Source of the DNA: a virus
Lineage: Duplodnaviria; Heunggongvirae; Uroviricota; Caudoviricetes
Virus record (IMG/VR): IMGVR_UViG_3300029250_000062
Location: 1 to 9,713 of that record
Direction: 5' to 3' (one strand)
DNA length: 9,713 nucleotides
Shown here: positions 2,711 to 8,230 of the stretch, one piece after another
Layout: every line of letters starts with the position of its first letter
How positions within the stretch are numbered: the stretch's first letter is position 1
Position numbers and translations under genes: made by a program
Notes under the pieces: generated by a model
What the model was told of the DNA's origin: nothing
What the model saw: the letters and a program-made list of their open reading frames with translations, nothing else
Databases searched by the model: none

Positions 2711-3244
2711 ATGAGCAGGAAACTCCACTATGGTTTATCGGTAGCCGTTCTGGCGCTGATTGCCACAGGTGCTTCTGCGCCTGAAATCCTCGACCAGTTT
2801 CTTGACGAAAAAGAAGGTAACCACACCACGGCATACCGTGATGGTGCGGGGATCTGGACCATCTGCCGTGGTGCCATCATGGTGGATGGCAAACCTGTCG
2901 TCCCGGGCATGAAGTTGTCGAAGGAAAAATGCGCTCAGGTTAATGCCATTGAACGTGATAAGGCGCTGGCATGGGTGGAGAAAAACATCAAATTGCCACT
3001 GACTGAACCGCAGAAAGCGGGCATCGCGTCATTCTGTCCGTACAACATCGGGCCTTCGAAATGCTTCACCTCAACGTTTTACCGGAAACTGAACGCCGGA
3101 GACCGGAAAGGTGCATGTGCTGAAATCCGCCGATGGATATATGACGGCGGCAGGGACTGTCGGAATCGCTCAAATAACTGTTACGGGCAGGTATCGCGGC
3201 GTGACCAGGAGAGCGCGCTGGCGTGCTGGGGAATTGACAGATAA
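2711..3244 (+). CDS. R: SAR endolysin (T4-lysozyme-like muramidase, R21-type)
   Basis: 177 aa. N-terminal weakly hydrophobic signal-anchor-release segment LHYGLSVAVLALIATGASAP. E-8aa-D-5aa-T catalytic triad in EGNHTTAYRDGAGIWT. Starts 5 nt after the holin stop. Confidence 0.85.
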   Translation: MSRKLHYGLSVAVLALIATGASAPEILDQFLDEKEGNHTTAYRDGAGIWTICRGAIMVDGKPVVPGMKLSKEKCAQVNAIERDKALAWVEKNIKLPLTEPQKAGIASFCPYNIGPSKCFTSTFYRKLNAGDRKGACAEIRRWIYDGGRDCRNRSNNCYGQVSRRDQESALACWGIDR

Positions 3245-3400: not shown

Positions 3401-3583
3401 ATGGAAAAGTATAAACGAATTCTGTTGAGGTTGACTATGAAAAACGGCCTTGAACTGAAAGCGCCTGTAACTGATGACATCAGCAGAGCACTGGCTTTTG
3501 CCATTAAGTGGGTGGCGGTCGGTGTTGCTGTGTCCCCGATGCTGTATGGGCTGGCAAAACTGGTCATTGCGTTGAAATCGTGA
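3401..3583 (+). CDS. Hypothetical small membrane protein (60 aa), C-terminal transmembrane helix
   Basis: ATG at 3401 preceded by SD AGGGAG (3391-3396). Basic N-terminus [12 protein letters not shown]-terminal hydrophobic [22 protein letters not shown]. Lies between endolysin and spanin genes. Confidence 0.45.
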
Positions 3584-3597
3584 AGGGAGGATTAAGC

Positions 3598-3729
3598 ATG
3601 TCAGACAAACTCATAACGCTGGCGAAGATCCTCTGTGTAATTGTCGGCATTTCATTTTCACTAATGCTGGTTGCTCTTTTTCTTTCCATGGCCTGGATGA
3701 TGTTGTCTTCGTCGGGGCTGCTGGGGTGA
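3598..3729 (+). CDS. Hypothetical small membrane protein (43 aa), single transmembrane helix
   Basis: ATG at 3598 preceded by strong SD AAGGGAGGA. Sequence [43 protein letters not shown]. Its stop TGA (3727-3729) overlaps the GTG start of Rz (GTGA), suggesting translational coupling. Confidence 0.45.
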
Positions 3730-4199
3730 ACATAAACCGAATGCTTTCCGCGTTTATCGTTATTCTGCTGGTGGCCTGTGGTGCGCTGTGGATGGCAACA
3801 GACCATTACCGTGATAACGCGATTACCTACAAAGCGCAGCGCGATAACAAAGCCAGTGAACTGAAGCTGGCGAACGCAACCATTACTGATATGCAGGTGC
3901 GCCAGCGCGATGTTGCTGCGCTCGATGCAAAATACTCGAGGGAATTAGCCGATGCGAGAGCTGAAAATGAAACTCTTCGCGCTGACGTTGCCGCTGGTCG
4001 TAAGCGCCTGCGGATCAACGCCACCTGTCCAGGCTCCGTGCGTGAAGCCCCCACCACCTCCGGCGTGGATAATGCAACCGGCCCCAGACTGGCAGACGCC
4101 GCTGAACGGGATTATTTCATCCTCAGAGAACGGTTGATGACAATGCAGAAGCAGCTGGAAGGGGCACAGCTATACATTCGTGAGCAATGCCTCAGATAA
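3726..4199 (+). CDS. Rz: Rz inner-membrane spanin (i-spanin)
   Basis: N-terminal TM helix ([18 protein letters not shown]) then [14 protein letters not shown]...[25 protein letters not shown], which tracks lambda Rz closely (recollection). GTG start at 3726; alternative ATG at 3741. Confidence 0.85.
3952..4137 (+). CDS. Rz1: Rz1 outer-membrane lipoprotein spanin (o-spanin), embedded in the +1 frame of Rz
   Basis: Lipobox LVVSAC, proline-rich [26 protein letters not shown] typical of lambda-type Rz1. SD GAGGGAA upstream; alternative start ATG 3967. Fully nested within Rz. Confidence 0.8.
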
Positions 4200-4588
4200 A
4201 AACCGGCCAAGGATAATCCGCTGAAGATTTGCCGGTGGCTAAAGGGGCCAAGCCACCAATTTACGTAATTAGCCACAGAGATACAATATTTTAGTTTACT
4301 TATGTATTTCTGAAGCATGTCTTTGCGCAGTATCGTCGCCGTATTCCCACATGAACAGAGACCGCAGCCCTACCGGGAGACTCCTCTGCGCGAGTGTGCG
4401 GGGATAATCAAAAACGATACACACCGGGGTTTACCGCGTTAACGGAGCGCGGCGTTGTCCCCTCATGGTCGCTGGTCCGGTGCGATGGTGGAAGAAACCG
4501 GACGATGTGTTACCTCGCAAGCTCTGTTATGTCATGTGTCTGATTTGTGATTTAAGTCGGATAATTGTCGTTGCCATTAAACAGAGGA

Positions 4589-4631
4589 TTGATGACCGAC
4601 AGGGTGGCATTGTTAGAATAAGACTTATTCT
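4589..4631 (+). promoter_or_regulatory. Putative sigma70 promoter (extended -10) with overlapping perfect palindromic operator-like site
   Basis: -35-like TTGATG (4589-4594), 19-bp spacer, extended -10 TGtTAGAAT (4611-4619). Palindrome AGAATAAG-a-CTTATTCT (4615-4631, 8-bp perfect arms) overlaps the -10/+1 region and ends 14 bp before the downstream lipoprotein start. Confidence 0.3.
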
Positions 4632-4645
4632 TATCTGTGCCGGGA

Positions 4646-4978
4646 ATGAAAATGAAAAGAAATCTTCCGTTAATTATTTTGTTGTCTTCTCTGGTTATGG
4701 GCTGTACGCAACATAAAACAGATATGCCCCGACAGTTGGTTAAGGCATTACCACAATATCCGGCCTATGCAGCGGCAAATTATATAAAGGGACGGGTTGA
4801 TGTGAAGTTTGATATTGGTGCTGATGGTACTGTCACCCGAATTGAGTTTATCCGTTCAGAGCCGCACCATTTGTTTGATGAGCAGGTTGTAAAGGCGATG
4901 GCAAAATGGCGATTTGAGAAGGACAGGCCGTGTAAAGGCGTGAAGAAAACGTTTATCTTTAGTCCTTCTGCACCCTGA
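4646..4978 (+). CDS. Lipoprotein consisting essentially of a TonB C-terminal-like domain (moron candidate)
   Basis: Signal peptide with lipobox (MKMKRNLPLIILLSSLVMG-C; Thr at +2 suggests outer-membrane sorting). Mature part LPQYPAYAAANYIKGRVDVKFDIGADGTVTRIEFIRSEPHHLFDEQVVKAMAKWRFE parallels the E. coli TonB C-terminal domain (PQYP...G.V.V.F.....DG.V.......P...F...V..AM..WR(Y/F), from memory). Alternative start ATG 4652 has better SD spacing. Confidence 0.7.
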   Translation: MKMKRNLPLIILLSSLVMGCTQHKTDMPRQLVKALPQYPAYAAANYIKGRVDVKFDIGADGTVTRIEFIRSEPHHLFDEQVVKAMAKWRFEKDRPCKGVKKTFIFSPSAP

Positions 4979-5011
4979 TTATTTCATCAGAAATTAATTA
5001 TCACTCTGTTG

Positions 5012-5113
5012 TTATTCTGTACATCCCGGCAGGGTAAGTCTTGTTCCGTCGGATATGAAGATGAAATATTGTTGGAGGACAGTGGGTACCTGCTCCTGTA
5101 ACCGAACGTTCAT
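5012..5113 (-). CDS. Possible 33-aa ORF translationally coupled to the upstream RHH gene (speculative)
   Basis: On the minus strand the ATG overlaps the RHH stop (ATGA). Product MNVRLQEQVPTVLQQYFIFISDGTRLTLPGCTE. Below the length cutoff of the supplied ORF track; no family recognised. Confidence 0.2.
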   Translation of the reverse strand: MNVRLQEQVPTVLQQYFIFISDGTRLTLPGCTE

Positions 5114-5310
5114 TTCTCGTTATTTTTCATGCTGGCCGGGCGCAGATGCGTTGCATCTGTTGCCAGCCTTCTCCTGCAGGCTTCAATAACCCACGCTGAA
5201 AAGTTACCGGACCCTTTATGCTCAAGGGCGATGCTGATCTGTTCAATCATGTGATTGGGGAAACGGATATTGCGGGTTGTGGTTCTGCGGGTCCGGTTTT
5301 TCGATGACAT
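5110..5310 (-). CDS. Arc/Mnt-like ribbon-helix-helix DNA-binding protein (possibly YlcI/YnfO DUF3950-like)
   Basis: 66 aa from ATG at 5310-5308 with SD AAGGAAA 8 nt upstream on the minus strand. RNIRFPNHMIEQISIALEHKGSGNFSAWVIEACRRRL aligns in pattern with Arc repressor FNLRWPREVLDLVRKVAEENGRSVNSEIYQRVMESF (beta-strand then two helices). Opposite strand to the surrounding late genes. Confidence 0.65.
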   Translation of the reverse strand: MSSKNRTRRTTTRNIRFPNHMIEQISIALEHKGSGNFSAWVIEACRRRLATDATHLRPASMKNNEK

Positions 5311-5351
5311 ATTTATTTCCTTTACTGATTGCCATATGACGGGGATTTTAC

Positions 5352-5717
5352 ATGGCTCAGCTTCGTACACTCCAGAGCAGAATCAAAACACTGAATACCC
5401 GACGGGTGAATATTCTGAAGGGGGAGCAGCGTCGTGTCAGTGGCAGTGCACGTGTTTCCCTCAAGCGTCATATCTGGCTGAGGGACGCCGGGCAGTGCTG
5501 TATCTGTGGTCGTGTGGTTGACCTCTGTGACAGTGAACTTGATCACCGAATTGCACTTCAGTTCGGTGGTGGTAATGAGGAGACGAATCTCTGGACGCTC
5601 TGTACCGAATGCCATCGACAAAAGTCTGCTCGTGAAGCGGCGGGTGGTATGCCGGACCCGACGCTGCCGGAGGTGTCCGGAGGTAGTGGCAGAGCGGACG
5701 ACATCATCGGACTGTAA
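5352..5717 (+). CDS. HNH endonuclease (packaging-associated, HK97 gp74-like)
   Basis: CxxC...DH...N...CxxCH arrangement: CCICGRVVD, SELDHRIALQFGGGNEETNLWTLCTECHRQK. Sits immediately upstream of the cos-like region and terS, the usual place in HK97-like packaging modules. Confidence 0.85.
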   Translation: MAQLRTLQSRIKTLNTRRVNILKGEQRRVSGSARVSLKRHIWLRDAGQCCICGRVVDLCDSELDHRIALQFGGGNEETNLWTLCTECHRQKSAREAAGGMPDPTLPEVSGGSGRADDIIGL

Positions 5718-6008: not shown

Positions 6009-6572
6009 GTGCTGACAACGCAAAAACGAAAATTTGCGCTGGCGCTCATGTCCGGGAAAAACAAAACAGCGTCAGCCATTGCCGCCGGTTATTCGGCGAA
6101 GACCGCCAGGGTTAAAGGCTCGCAGCTGGCAAAAGATCCGGAGGTGCTTGCGTTTATAGCCCGTAAACAATGCGAGACGGTGGAGGTGGATGAGGTTCCT
6201 GTTTACCGGCAGAAAAAATCAGAGCAGGAGGATAAACCCCGTCGCCGTGAGGCGGCTGCAATACCACAGCCGGACGAAAACAATCCGGAGATGCCACCGT
6301 CCGCGGTGATGTCTCCTGGTATTGAATATATGGAGGATGGTCTTCCCGATCCGGTGAAAGCCATGGGGCGGATCCTGGTGGAAAACCTCTGCATTGATCC
6401 GAAACTGGCACTGGATGCGGCCTGGCGTCTGGCGCAGTTCACGCACCATAAAAAAGGGGATACCGGGAAAAAATCGGCAAAAGGTGATGCCGCGAAAAAA
6501 GCGGCTAACCGTTTTGCGGTGCCACCGCCACCCAGACTGGTGGTGAATAACGATAATGAGGGCAACGGATGA
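6009..6572 (+). CDS. terS: Terminase small subunit (HTH-containing)
   Basis: GTG start at 6009 with SD GGGAGG/AGGAGG (5998-6006). N-terminal LTTQKRKFALALMSGKNKTASAIAAGYSAKTARVKGSQL matches the usual terS signature (K.FA..Y....N.T.AAI.AGYS.KTA...GS.L). Stop TGA overlaps the terL ATG (ATGA at 6569-6572). Confidence 0.85.
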   Translation: MLTTQKRKFALALMSGKNKTASAIAAGYSAKTARVKGSQLAKDPEVLAFIARKQCETVEVDEVPVYRQKKSEQEDKPRRREAAAIPQPDENNPEMPPSAVMSPGIEYMEDGLPDPVKAMGRILVENLCIDPKLALDAAWRLAQFTHHKKGDTGKKSAKGDAAKKAANRFAVPPPPRLVVNNDNEGNG

Positions 6573-8230
6573 TACCTGTATGGAGCACAGCCTGCCCGGA
6601 CTGGGCAGAGCGCCTGAAAAAGGGGCTGTCGATTATTCCGGATCCGATTTATCCGGACGAGGCCGCACATGCCCTGGCGATTTTTAAACAACTGCGGATT
6701 GTGGATGCACCTGGTAGCCCGACGTTCGGGGAGTCCTGTGCACGGTGGGTGTTTGACCTGGTGGCGGCCCTGTTTGGCTCCTACGATGCGCAGACCGGTG
6801 TACGCCATATCAAGGAAGTTTTTATCCTTATCCCCAAGAAAAACTCGAAGTCCACGCTGGCCGCGGGGATCATGATGACGGCGCTGTTACTGAACTGGCG
6901 GCAGGCGGCGGGTTACACGATTCTGGCCCCGACTGTGGAGGTGGCGGCCAACGCCTTCAACCCTGCCCGGGATATGGTACGACGTGACGATGATCTGGAT
7001 GACCTCTGCCAGGTACAGACCCATATCCGGACCATCACCCACAGGGTGACAGACACCACCCTGAAGGTGGTGGCAGCCGATCCGAATACGGTGTCCGGTA
7101 TCAAGTCCGTGGGTACGCTGATTGATGAGTTGTGGCTGTTTGGCAAGCAGTGCAAGGCGGAGGACATGTTACGTGAAGCCATAGGCGGCCTTGCCTCCCG
7201 CCCGGAAGGGTTTGTGGTGTATACGACCACCCAGTCGAATGAACCGCCCGCCGGGGTGTTCAGACAGAAACTGCAGTACGCCCGGGATGTGCGCGACGGC
7301 AAAATTCATGATCCGCACTTTCTGCCGGTGATATTTGAACACCCTCCTGAAATGGTGGAAAGCGGGACTCACCTGCTGATGGAAAACCTCGCCATGGTCA
7401 ATCCGAATCTCGGCTATTCAGTGGATGAGGCCTTTCTGTACCGGGAGTACCGTAAAGCCCGGGAAGCCGGTGAAGAGACATTCCGGGGGTTCATGTCAAA
7501 ACACGCCAATGTGGAAATTGGTCTTGCCCTGCGCTCTGACCGCTGGGCGGGGGCTGATTTCTGGGAAGAGCAGGGCCGTTGTATCAGCCTGGACGATATC
7601 CTGCGTCGTGCTGATGTGGTGACGGTGGGGATTGACGGCGGAGGGCTGGATGATCTGCTGGGGATGTATGTGATTGGGCGTGACCGGGAGACCCGCGAAT
7701 GGCTGGGCTGGGGCCATGCCTGGGCGCATGAAACCGCGGTGGTCCGACGGAAGAGCGAGGCGTCCCGGTTTCAGGATCTTGTTGCCTGTGGAGATATGAC
7801 CATTGTCCGGCGTGTCGGGGATGACACGGCGGAAGTGGCGGAATATGTGCGTCGCATTCATGAGGCTGAGTTACTGGACCATATCGGTATTGACCCGTCA
7901 GGGGTGGGGCAGATTCTGGATTCACTGGCGGAAGCCGGGATCCCCGACGGAATTGTGGTGGGGATAAGCCAGGGCTGGAAACTGGGCGGGGCCATTAAAA
8001 CCACCGAGCGCAAACTGGCTGAAGGGGTGCTGGTGCATGGTGACCAGCCCCTGATGGCCTGGTGTGTCGGCAATGCCCGGGTGGAGCCTAAAGGTAACGC
8101 CATTCTTATCACCAAACAGGCCAGTGGACGGGGAAAAATTGACCCGCTGATGGCGCTGTTCAATGCGGTCTCCCTGATGTCCCTTAACCCGGAACCGAAA
8201 AAGAAAGAATATGCGGTTTTTTTCATATAA
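6569..8230 (+). CDS. terL: Terminase large subunit (ATPase + RNase H-like nuclease domains)
   Basis: 553 aa. Walker A-like ILIPKKNSKSTLAAG, Walker B-like GTLIDELW, C-terminal nuclease-type acidic cluster VTVGIDGGGLDDLLGMYVIG. Translationally coupled to terS. Confidence 0.9.
   Translation: MIPVWSTACPDWAERLKKGLSIIPDPIYPDEAAHALAIFKQLRIVDAPGSPTFGESCARWVFDLVAALFGSYDAQTGVRHIKEVFILIPKKNSKSTLAAGIMMTALLLNWRQAAGYTILAPTVEVAANAFNPARDMVRRDDDLDDLCQVQTHIRTITHRVTDTTLKVVAADPNTVSGIKSVGTLIDELWLFGKQCKAEDMLREAIGGLASRPEGFVVYTTTQSNEPPAGVFRQKLQYARDVRDGKIHDPHFLPVIFEHPPEMVESGTHLLMENLAMVNPNLGYSVDEAFLYREYRKAREAGEETFRGFMSKHANVEIGLALRSDRWAGADFWEEQGRCISLDDILRRADVVTVGIDGGGLDDLLGMYVIGRDRETREWLGWGHAWAHETAVVRRKSEASRFQDLVACGDMTIVRRVGDDTAEVAEYVRRIHEAELLDHIGIDPSGVGQILDSLAEAGIPDGIVVGISQGWKLGGAIKTTERKLAEGVLVHGDQPLMAWCVGNARVEPKGNAILITKQASGRGKIDPLMALFNAVSLMSLNPEPKKKEYAVFFI

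What the first reader, a model, noticed from the sequence alone, without database searches (positions are those of the whole stretch)
5012..5420. Opposite-strand Arc-like RHH regulator gene, possibly coupled to a 33-codon ORF, divergent from HNH
The only convincing minus-strand gene in the window encodes a 66-aa ribbon-helix-helix protein with a good SD. Its stop overlaps (ATGA) the ATG of a further 33-codon ORF. Its start is only 41 bp from the divergent HNH start, so its promoter must lie within the HNH 5' coding sequence, where a GAATATTC palindrome sits (5408-5415). A TTATTCT half-site like that of the palindrome at 4615-4631 recurs at 5013-5019. The RHH protein could be the repressor for the TonB-like moron or an autoregulated antitoxin-like module. 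From memory, DLP12 ylcI occupies a similar position between lysis genes and terminase.
Basis: partly seen in the sequence, partly recalled or inferred. Interest (0 to 1): 0.5.

Follow-up and report, generated by a model that had tools for sequence, protein, structure and literature searches.

The report
Known prophage YlcI ribbon-helix-helix gene
The minus-strand gene is real but ordinary: it belongs to the already annotated, functionally uncharacterised YlcI/YnfO (DUF3950) family of small, probably DNA-binding prophage proteins. The 33-codon ORF attached to it is not a gene.

The parts
5110..5310 (-). ylcI/ynfO-family gene (66 aa, DUF3950). Predicted ribbon-helix-helix core is about residues 13-50, followed by a variable C-terminal tail.
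   Evidence: Pfam PF13132 E 4.3e-19 (68.5 bits, cut-off 25). NCBIfam NF041551 scores 35.3 bits (cut-off 30). phrog_949 E 3e-32. The identical CDS is annotated by PGAP as WP_021565045.1. dN/dS is about 0.03 against the lambda allele. Of 60 variable sites, 33 are at codon position 3.
5318..5322 (-). Shine-Dalgarno AAGGA, 7 nt upstream of ATG 5310.
   Evidence: Read directly from the sequence.
5311..5351 (.). 41-bp divergent intergenic region between ylcI and HNH. Positions 5335-5357 are conserved across alleles. Positions 5311-5333 are replaced in the O157-type allele.
5412..5440 (-). Sigma-70 promoter-like site CTGACA-17-CAGAAT inside the HNH 5' coding region. Candidate ylcI promoter, not shown to function.
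   Evidence: 9 of 12 matches. The -35 block 5427-5449 is invariant in all 22 alleles. The -10 is lost in the O157-type allele.
5408..5415 (.). GAATATTC palindrome overlapping the candidate -10.
   Evidence: 2 copies in the window, 0.12 expected. It is intact in 20 of 22 alleles, altered by single changes in two, and abolished (GGACATTT) in the O157-type allele.
5388..5398 (+). 11-mer ACACTGAATAC, also present in the 5' leader of the lambda/DLP12-type ylcI. Weak lead for a shared site.
   Evidence: p about 0.012 by shuffling. There is a single copy in the window. Its synonymous HNH positions vary.
5012..5113 (-). 33-codon ORF overlapping the ylcI stop as ATGA. Judged not to be a gene.
   Evidence: No hit in Pfam, NCBIfam, PHROGs or PADLOC. 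It has 11 variable sites in 53 loci: 2 synonymous, 9 non-synonymous, at codon positions 4/6/1. Only its first 14 nt are shared with cassette-free prophages.
4496..5110 (.). TonB-like moron cassette of about 604 bp, inserted immediately after the ylcI stop and bounded by the direct repeats AACCGGACGAT (4496-4506) and AACCGAACGTT (5100-5110).
   Evidence: Alignment with the cassette-free JJ1887 prophage. Homology breakpoints.
4637..4978 (+). TonB C-terminal-domain protein with a lipobox (LVMGC). This is the moron cargo.
   Evidence: Pfam TonB_C E 1.4e-14; NCBIfam tonB_Cterm. PGAP calls it 'TonB family protein'.
4592..4631 (+). Promoter-like site (ATGACC-16-TAGAAT with TG) overlapping the 8-1-8 palindrome AGAATAAG-A-CTTATTCT upstream of the TonB-like gene.
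   Evidence: The match to the Fur consensus is 13 of 19, which is background level.
5352..5717 (+). HNH endonuclease, first gene of the HK97-type packaging module, followed by TerS (6009-6572) and TerL (6569-8230). It is divergent from ylcI.
   Evidence: Pfam HNH E 4.8e-7; phrog_589 E 1.6e-44. PGAP annotation.

Best explanation
Positions 5110-5310 (minus strand) encode a member of the YlcI/YnfO (DUF3950) family. This is a small basic protein whose conserved core most likely folds as a ribbon-helix-helix and binds DNA as a dimer. The gene is the last one before the packaging module of a lambdoid E. coli prophage, and it lies antisense to the late operon. It therefore needs its own promoter and is probably expressed from the resident prophage rather than with the late genes.

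The most likely job is a sequence-specific transcriptional repressor. It would control its own promoter and possibly transcription entering the divergent packaging genes.

How firmly each step stands:
- Shown: gene identity, purifying selection, and genomic position.
- Supported by fold prediction only: the RHH fold.
- Inferred: DNA binding, autoregulation and the target.

The attached 33-codon ORF and the neighbouring TonB-like moron are not part of the unit.
For: - Family membership is above the curated cut-offs. PGAP annotates the identical CDS. The family is present in 1464 of 5426 E. coli genomes, with a median of 2 places per genome.
- The core is strongly constrained. Codons 1-49 against the lambda allele show 22 synonymous and 5 non-synonymous differences, giving dN/dS of about 0.03.
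- The AlphaFold model has core pLDDT of 76-82. Its topology is an extended segment 14-18, a helix 19-32 and a helix 37-55.
- The Foldseek PDB list is dominated by RHH proteins, including NikR, ParD2, Arc, AmrZ, TacA, MazE9 and CopA.
- hhalign places NIRFP on Arc's NLRWP in the expected register, with E 0.0024.
- The position is the same in three settings: before HNH-TerS in this window, before the Nu1-type TerS in L009, and in lambda and K-12 DLP12.
- K-12 RNA-seq lists a ybcW-ylcI convergent transcript overlap, so ylcI is transcribed in a resident cryptic prophage (PMC12288877).
- Distant members in 17 satellite loci are antisense to all neighbours. In 7 of 7 loci tested with the repeat finder, the upstream DNA carries 2-4 copies of an element-specific 11-19-nt repeat. 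By my reading of the upstream sequences the repeat is of GTG-N6-CAC type and recurs in all 17. This is an operator-like layout.
- One member is fused to the DNA-binding N-terminal domain of TerS.
Against: - No RHH Pfam family and no solved structure matches by sequence.
- No repeated operator-like element was found upstream of ylcI in this window or in the DLP12 or O157-type loci.
- The only promoter-like site scores 9 of 12, and its -10 and palindrome are lost in the O157-type allele.
- No sigma-70-like promoter for ylcI passes the scan in K-12.
- No paper in the searched library gives a function.
Confidence: 0.6

Rival explanations
1. RHH antitoxin plus small toxin. On this reading YlcI is the antitoxin of a two-gene module, and the translationally coupled 33-codon ORF (5012-5113) is the toxin.
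For: There is an ATGA stop/start overlap. RHH antitoxins (TacA, ParD, MazE9) are among the structural neighbours. There is a weak HicB-like PHROG hit at E 0.028.
Against: ORF33 has no family hit. Only its first 14 nt belong to the conserved ylcI flank; the rest is antisense cassette DNA. Thirty of 80 loci with the same ylcI allele carry an unrelated downstream sequence, and the 61-aa and lambda alleles have other short ORFs of 25 and 17 codons. The variable sites are 2 synonymous against 9 non-synonymous, with only one at codon position 3. The SD is poor (GAG, 2 nt from the ATG).
Confidence: 0.03
2. Dedicated repressor of the adjacent TonB-like moron, acting at the 4615-4631 palindrome that overlaps the moron's promoter-like site.
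For: A perfect 8-1-8 palindrome overlaps an extended -10-like promoter. The moron is nearly always next to ylcI: 401 genomes cover both and 414 cover the moron. AGAATA occurs both in this palindrome and at the GAATATTC site.
Against: The adjacency is explained by a single insertion event at a fixed site bounded by direct repeats. ylcI occurs in 1464 genomes and 3501 places, most of them without the cassette, including lambda and K-12. The YlcI core is unchanged whether or not the cassette is present. The extra TTATTCT copy is at chance level.
Confidence: 0.07
3. Guard or accessory factor for packaging. On this reading YlcI binds near the packaging genes or the cos region. It would either keep HNH and terminase silent in the lysogen, where cos cleavage would break the chromosome, or modulate cos recognition.
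For: The gene is invariably the last one before the packaging module, whichever module type follows: HNH-TerS-TerL in this window, cos-Nu1 in lambda, DLP12 and L009. A satellite homologue is fused to the TerS N-terminal DNA-binding domain. cf-PICI satellites that carry their own TerS and TerL also carry a YlcI/YnfO gene (PMC13612085).
Against: No shared multi-copy site was found between ylcI and the packaging genes. In satellites the gene sits next to the primase operon, not the packaging genes. Late genes are driven from a distant late promoter. From my own knowledge, lambda packaging has been reconstituted without such a factor.
Confidence: 0.15
4. The antisense transcript is what matters, not the protein. 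On this reading transcription of ylcI against the late operon acts as an excludon-type brake on read-through from the lysis genes.
For: The gene is antisense to the late operon in every context. K-12 RNA-seq lists a ybcW-ylcI convergent overlap. No intrinsic terminator follows ylcI.
Against: The protein core is under very strong purifying selection while synonymous sites are saturated. An RNA-only role would not produce that pattern.
Confidence: 0.05

Closest known systems
YlcI (DLP12) and YnfO (Qin) of E. coli K-12; Pfam DUF3950 / NCBIfam NF041551
   Same: Same family by HMM. The core motif ...NIRFPN.MIEQI.IAL..KGSGNFSAWVIEACRRRL is shared, with 86.5% identity over residues 1-52 between the window protein and the lambda/DLP12 allele. 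Same orientation and same slot: after the lysis/bor region, antisense, directly before the packaging genes.
   Different: The C-terminal tail differs (ATDATHLRPASMKNNEK against TSEKRAYTSIKSDEE or the 77-aa YnfO tail). In this window the gene is followed by an HK97-type HNH-TerS-TerL module instead of cos-Nu1 (nohD/nohA), so the upstream DNA is unrelated.
Unannotated 64-aa ORF of phage lambda (NC_001416 48109-48303, minus strand)
   Same: Its protein is identical to the 64-aa YlcI ORF of the DLP12-type locus L022, and K-12 ylcI is annotated at the same length (195 nt, 64 aa). It is a homologue of the window protein and the last ORF before cosQ/cosN.
   Different: It lies about 170 bp from cosQ with a different upstream region. 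It carries no feature in the lambda RefSeq record, although some other lambda-like records annotate it as a hypothetical protein or as YlcI/YnfO.
Arc and Mnt repressors of phage P22 (immI region)
   Same: Small phage RHH repressors of about 50-80 aa, encoded within the late region. Arc's DNA-reading strand motif N-L-R-W-P aligns with N-I-R-F-P in this protein. Arc structures are among the Foldseek neighbours.
   Different: This protein is not a member of Pfam Arc: BLASTP finds nothing and hhalign probability is only 12%. There is no antirepressor gene beside it, and no operator has been identified.
RHH antitoxins and CopG-type regulators (TacA, ParD, MazE9, PutA N-domain, NikR N-domain)
   Same: They are the best structural neighbours of the model.
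   Different: No toxin partner is present and there is no sequence-level relationship.
DUF3950 genes of P4-like/PICI satellites of Enterobacterales and Pasteurella (e.g. L091, Pmp7)
   Same: Same domain at 36-46% identity. These are short genes lying antisense to all neighbours.
   Different: In satellites the gene sits between alpA and the primase operon, downstream of 2-4 element-specific repeats spaced about 23 and 47 bp apart. No such repeats exist in this window.

Membership tests
YlcI/YnfO family (NCBIfam NF041551; Pfam PF13132 DUF3950) | HMM score above the curated cut-off. | tested here: met
   NF041551 scores 35.3 bits against a cut-off of 30. PF13132 scores 68.5 bits against 25. phrog_949 E 3e-32.
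YlcI/YnfO family (NCBIfam NF041551; Pfam PF13132 DUF3950) | Conserved NFSAWV motif and a small size (about 40-80 aa). | tested here: met
   F37, W40, V41 and C45 are invariant and N36, S38 and A39 are at least 90% conserved in the 30-sequence alignment. The protein is 66 aa.
YlcI/YnfO family (NCBIfam NF041551; Pfam PF13132 DUF3950) | Lambdoid-prophage position between the lysis genes and the packaging genes, on the opposite strand. | tested here: met
   Window layout. K-12 DLP12. Lambda.
Ribbon-helix-helix superfamily (Arc/MetJ/CopG) | Strand-helix-helix topology of about 45 residues. | tested here: inconclusive
   The AF2 monomer shows an extended segment 14-18, a helix 19-32 and a helix 37-55, with core pLDDT 76-82. 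No beta-strand is called, as expected without the partner chain.
Ribbon-helix-helix superfamily (Arc/MetJ/CopG) | Structural similarity to solved RHH proteins. | tested here: met
Ribbon-helix-helix superfamily (Arc/MetJ/CopG) | Sequence-profile match to an RHH family. | tested here: not met
   No RHH Pfam hit at E up to 10 for any of 30 family members. No PDB sequence hit. hhalign against an Arc profile gives E 0.0024 and probability 12%.
Ribbon-helix-helix superfamily (Arc/MetJ/CopG) | Dimerisation through an antiparallel beta-ribbon and sequence-specific DNA binding. | not testable with these tools
   This needs biochemistry or a multimer prediction.
Type II toxin-antitoxin module with RHH antitoxin | A conserved, co-transcribed toxin gene adjacent to the antitoxin. 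| tested here: not met
   ORF33 is not conserved, shows no coding signature and has no family hit.
Arc family (Pfam PF03869) | Match to the Arc HMM. | tested here: not met
   Only DUF3950 is reported for the protein. BLASTP against Arc finds nothing.

The most novel reading that the evidence does not exclude
DUF3950 proteins are a single, overlooked class of RHH repressors that mobile elements embed antisense in long operons. In P4-like/PICI satellites of Gram-negative bacteria the protein would be the missing repressor of the replication operon, acting at the triple element-specific repeats. In lambdoid phages, including lambda itself where the gene is unannotated 170 bp from cosQ, the nearly invariant copy would read a conserved target. 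That target could be at the packaging/cos end or on co-resident satellites and prophages, so the protein would mediate cross-talk between elements.
Probability: 0.15. Interest if true: 0.65.

Novelty: already known. Interest (0 to 1): 0.22.

Why it matters
For this window it matters little. The gene is a routine, already annotated member of a common prophage family, and the more exciting readings (a toxin-antitoxin pair, a moron repressor) do not hold.

The family itself is still a domain of unknown function, although it is present in about a quarter of complete E. coli genomes, in K-12 (ylcI, ynfO) and in phage lambda. Showing that it is an RHH DNA-binding protein and finding its target would fill a small but persistent gap in the lambda and K-12 gene catalogues. 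It might also identify a regulator of Gram-negative phage satellites.

Tried and rejected
- **Toxin-antitoxin reading.** Rejected on the cassette boundary, the alleles without the ORF, and the 2:9 ratio of synonymous to non-synonymous variable sites.
- **Longer 86-aa form from GTG 5370.** Rejected. PGAP and all homologues start at the MSS/MST methionine, a good SD precedes it, and in lambda the ATG is the first start codon after the upstream in-frame stop, so no such extension is open there.
- **Fur box at the TonB-moron palindrome.** It matches 13 of 19 consensus positions, which equals shuffled background.
- **Sequence-level link to RHH.** The results were nothing or only weak matches in the correct register.
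- **Shared operator search.** An 11-mer, ACACTGAATAC, is common to the window and the lambda-type leader (p about 0.012). It is single-copy in the window and not protected from synonymous change, so I keep it only as a lead. The satellite-type element GTG-N6-CAC occurs once upstream of ylcI (5440-5451), which is consistent with chance.
- **RNA features.** There is no Rfam hit, no terminator, and no unusual fold downstream of ylcI.
- **Defence-system membership.** There is no PADLOC hit.
- **Literature.** No functional study of ylcI, ynfO or DUF3950 is in the searched library. The 2013 lambda ribosome-profiling paper is not held.
- **Long 'c0' ORFs and the Pmp7 'transcriptional repressor' CDS in satellites.** These are antisense shadows of the DUF3950 gene.

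Full report
**Setting.** The window is the late region of a lambdoid E. coli prophage. The order is:
- a SASA-type esterase
- holin (2491-2706)
- lysozyme (2711-3244)
- Rz/Rz1 (3726-4199)
- a TonB C-terminal-domain gene (4637-4978)
- the minus-strand ORF under study (5110-5310)
- HNH endonuclease (5352-5717)
- TerS (6009-6572)
- TerL (6569-8230)

The stretch 4950-5420 is 100% identical to E. coli DETEC-S792. The window as a whole is a mosaic that no complete genome in the collection matches end to end.

**Observation.**
- the 66-codon ORF from ATG 5310 to the stop at 5112-5110
- AAGGA at 5318-5322, 7 nt upstream of that ATG
- the ATGA overlap at 5110-5113 with a 33-codon ORF running to 5012
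- the 41-bp gap to the HNH ATG at 5352
- GAATATTC at 5408-5415
- the 8-1-8 palindrome at 4615-4631

These are confirmed. Two points need correction. Apart from the two copies inside the palindrome, its recurrence is unremarkable.

**What the gene is.** The protein matches Pfam DUF3950 (E 4e-19), NCBIfam YlcI_YnfO_N (35.3 bits against a cut-off of 30) and phrog_949 (E 3e-32). PGAP annotates exactly this CDS as 'YlcI/YnfO family protein'. Related DNA is present in 1464 of 5426 complete E. coli genomes, with a median of two places per genome.

K-12 ylcI in DLP12 lies in the same slot and orientation. The order there is essD, rrrD, rzpD, borD, ybcV, ybcW, then ylcI on the minus strand, then nohD.

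The family is narrow. Only 98 clusters at 50% identity were found among 1.84 billion representatives, and genuine members come from Enterobacterales plus one Pasteurella satellite.

The gene is clearly coding:
- Against the lambda allele, codons 1-49 differ at 22 synonymous but only 5 non-synonymous positions, giving dN/dS of about 0.03.
- Across 86 loci, 33 of 60 variable sites are at third codon positions.
- After residue 50 the protein is mosaic, with at least four unrelated tails.

**Fold.** No sequence method links the family to a solved structure or to an RHH Pfam family. BLASTP against Arc finds nothing.

At fold level the picture is consistent:
- An AlphaFold model built from 19 family sequences has core pLDDT of 76-82. 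Its topology is an extended segment 14-18, a helix 19-32, a short loop, and a helix 37-55.
- The Foldseek PDB list is almost entirely RHH proteins, including NikR, ParD2, Arc, AmrZ, TacA, MazE9 and CopA, with E between 0.9 and 8.
- Profile comparison with an Arc family alignment places N-I-R-F-P on Arc's N-L-R-W-P, which is the DNA-reading strand, but only with E 0.0024 and probability 12%.

I therefore treat the RHH fold as likely (about 0.8), not proven.

**The 33-codon ORF.** It is not a gene.

Alignment with a prophage that has the same ylcI allele but no TonB gene (JJ1887) shows a cassette of about 604 bp in the window, spanning 4496-5110. The cassette is bounded by the direct repeats AACCGGACGAT and AACCGAACGTT and is inserted immediately after the ylcI stop. 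Only the first 14 nt of ORF33 are conserved ylcI flank. The rest is the antisense strand of the cassette's 3' end.

Several comparisons agree:
- Among 80 viral contigs with the 66-aa allele, 30 lack the cassette. After MNVR their downstream frame reads a completely different peptide.
- The 61-aa allele is followed by a different short ORF of 25 codons, and the lambda allele by one of 17 codons.
- Within 53 cassette-bearing loci, ORF33 has 11 variable sites. Two are synonymous and nine non-synonymous, and they fall at codon positions 1/2/3 in the ratio 4/6/1. This is the opposite of a coding pattern.
- It has no hit in Pfam, NCBIfam, PHROGs or PADLOC.

The toxin-antitoxin reading therefore fails.

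**Link to the TonB-like moron.** The moron occurs in 417 genomes and is almost always next to ylcI. That adjacency follows from one insertion at one site. ylcI occurs three to four times more often without the moron, including in lambda and K-12, and its core is unchanged either way. The palindrome at 4615-4631 does overlap a promoter-like site with a TG-extended -10 and is a good operator candidate for some protein. Nothing ties it to YlcI, and it is not a Fur box (13 of 19 consensus positions, which is background).

**Promoter and operator of ylcI.** The only promoter-like site on the minus strand is CTGACA-17-CAGAAT at 5440-5412, inside the HNH 5' coding region. Its -10 overlaps GAATATTC. 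Across 22 alleles the -35 block 5427-5449 is invariant. The palindrome is intact in 20 of them, altered by single changes in two, and the palindrome and -10 are both destroyed in the O157-type allele. That allele's YlcI has an almost identical N-terminal arm.

Other candidates are weak:
- No repeated element lies upstream of ylcI in the window, in DLP12 or in the O157-type locus.
- An 11-mer, ACACTGAATAC (5388-5398), also occurs in the leader of the lambda/DLP12-type gene (p about 0.012). It is single-copy in the window, and its synonymous HNH positions vary.
- A 25-nt imperfect inverted repeat (5264-5288 and 5377-5401) is symmetric about the intergenic centre, but it is of borderline significance.

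It remains unproven.

**Wider context that bears on mechanism.** First, the gene is always the last one before the packaging genes, whichever module follows. That module is HNH-TerS-TerL in this window and cos-Nu1 in L009, lambda, DLP12 and Qin-like loci. The gene is always antisense to the late operon. K-12 RNA-seq lists a ybcW-ylcI convergent overlap, so the gene is transcribed in a resident cryptic prophage (PMC12288877).

Second, more distant members (36-46% identity) lie in P4-like/PICI satellites:
- They sit between alpA (and BRO/AntA genes in some) and the primase operon, again antisense to everything around them.
- In 7 of 7 loci tested with the repeat finder, the upstream DNA carries two to four copies of an 11-19-nt repeat. 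The spacing is about 23 and 47 bp, and the repeat sequence is specific to each element.
- By my reading of the sequences the repeat is of GTG-N6-CAC type, recurs in all 17 satellite loci, and sits next to a conserved CACGTCAAG.
- This is the layout of a divergent operator region, although the simple sigma-70 scan finds no promoter there.
- One satellite protein fuses the domain to the TerS N-terminal DNA-binding domain.

These observations support a DNA-binding regulator role for the family. They do not show it for this window.

**Most likely mechanism.** YlcI in this window is probably a dimeric RHH repressor made from its own promoter in the lysogen. It would autoregulate and possibly control transcription at the boundary between the lysis genes and the packaging genes. 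The near-invariance of the DNA-reading arm, set against unrelated upstream DNA and saturated synonymous sites, suggests a conserved target that I could not find.

Confidence by step:

| Claim | Confidence |
|---|---|
| Family identity | about 0.97 |
| RHH fold | about 0.8 |
| Transcription-factor function | about 0.55 |
| Any specific target | below 0.2 |

**Novelty.** The gene and its family are already known and annotated. The function is unknown in the literature I could search. The finding is a correct identification of an ordinary feature, with two speculative additions that do not survive checking.

Noticed in passing
L090 3110-3304 (= NC_001416 48109-48303, minus strand): The phage lambda RefSeq record carries an intact 64-aa YlcI/YnfO ORF about 170 bp from cosQ and about 200 bp from the right cohesive end, and it has no feature there. 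The protein is identical to the 64-aa DLP12-type YlcI (L022). Some other lambda-like records annotate it as a hypothetical protein or as YlcI/YnfO.
   Followed up: partly
Loci L012-L039 and others from genome contigs: Dozens of 'hits' in unrelated taxa (Cohnella, Streptomyces, Pseudomonas, Candidatus Nanosynbacter and others) lie about 200-390 bp from the end of contigs of roughly 3.5 kb or 48.4 kb. From the contig sizes and the position near the end, I infer that these are lambda DNA or sequencing-control DNA contaminating the assemblies, not real homologues.
   Followed up: partly
L090 about 3448-3472 (lambda about 48447-48471); L173 4083-4110 (K-12 DLP12): A perfect 7-1-7 palindrome, TGATAAT-n-ATTATCA, lies next to cosQ. 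It matches 16 of 19 positions of the Fur-box consensus, and its central base varies between loci. In K-12 it overlaps a rightward promoter-like site, GTGACA-16-TATCAT (10 of 12), that points through cos towards nohD.
   Followed up: partly
window 4496-5110: The TonB-like gene is carried on a discrete cassette of about 604 bp flanked by 11-bp direct repeats. The cassette brings its own promoter-like site and an 8-1-8 palindrome. The protein has a lipobox (LVMGC). PHROGs labels its family 'Rz-like spanin', which looks like a mislabel.
   Followed up: partly
L091 3879-3933; L066 3895-3983; L068 3879-3985; L057 3891-3971; L054 3891-3928; L076 3650-3739; L172 4775-4838: Satellite (P4-like/PICI) DUF3950 genes lie downstream of 2-4 copies of an element-specific repeat of 11-19 nt, of GTG-N6-CAC type by my reading, spaced about 23 and 47 bp apart. 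A conserved CACGTCAAG lies alongside. This is a candidate regulatory switch between the DUF3950 gene and the primase operon.
   Followed up: partly
L172 4435-5109 (Pasteurella phage Pmp7) and the 'c0' ORFs in L052-L085: A 224-aa CDS annotated 'transcriptional repressor' in Pmp7, and similar long ORFs in other satellites, are the antisense shadow of the 59-aa DUF3950 gene. For example, ASITQDEKL is the reverse reading of NFSSWVIDAC.
   Followed up: yes
L091 4001-4390 (protein P0196): A complete 129-aa satellite ORF fuses the DUF3950 domain to the N-terminal DNA-binding part of a Terminase_2 small subunit (Pfam E 1.7e-6).
   Followed up: partly
window 5264-5288 and 5377-5401: A 25-nt imperfect inverted repeat (76% complementary) places one arm in the ylcI 5' coding region and the other in the HNH 5' coding region, symmetric about the intergenic centre. 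My estimate of the chance expectation is about 0.06.
   Followed up: no
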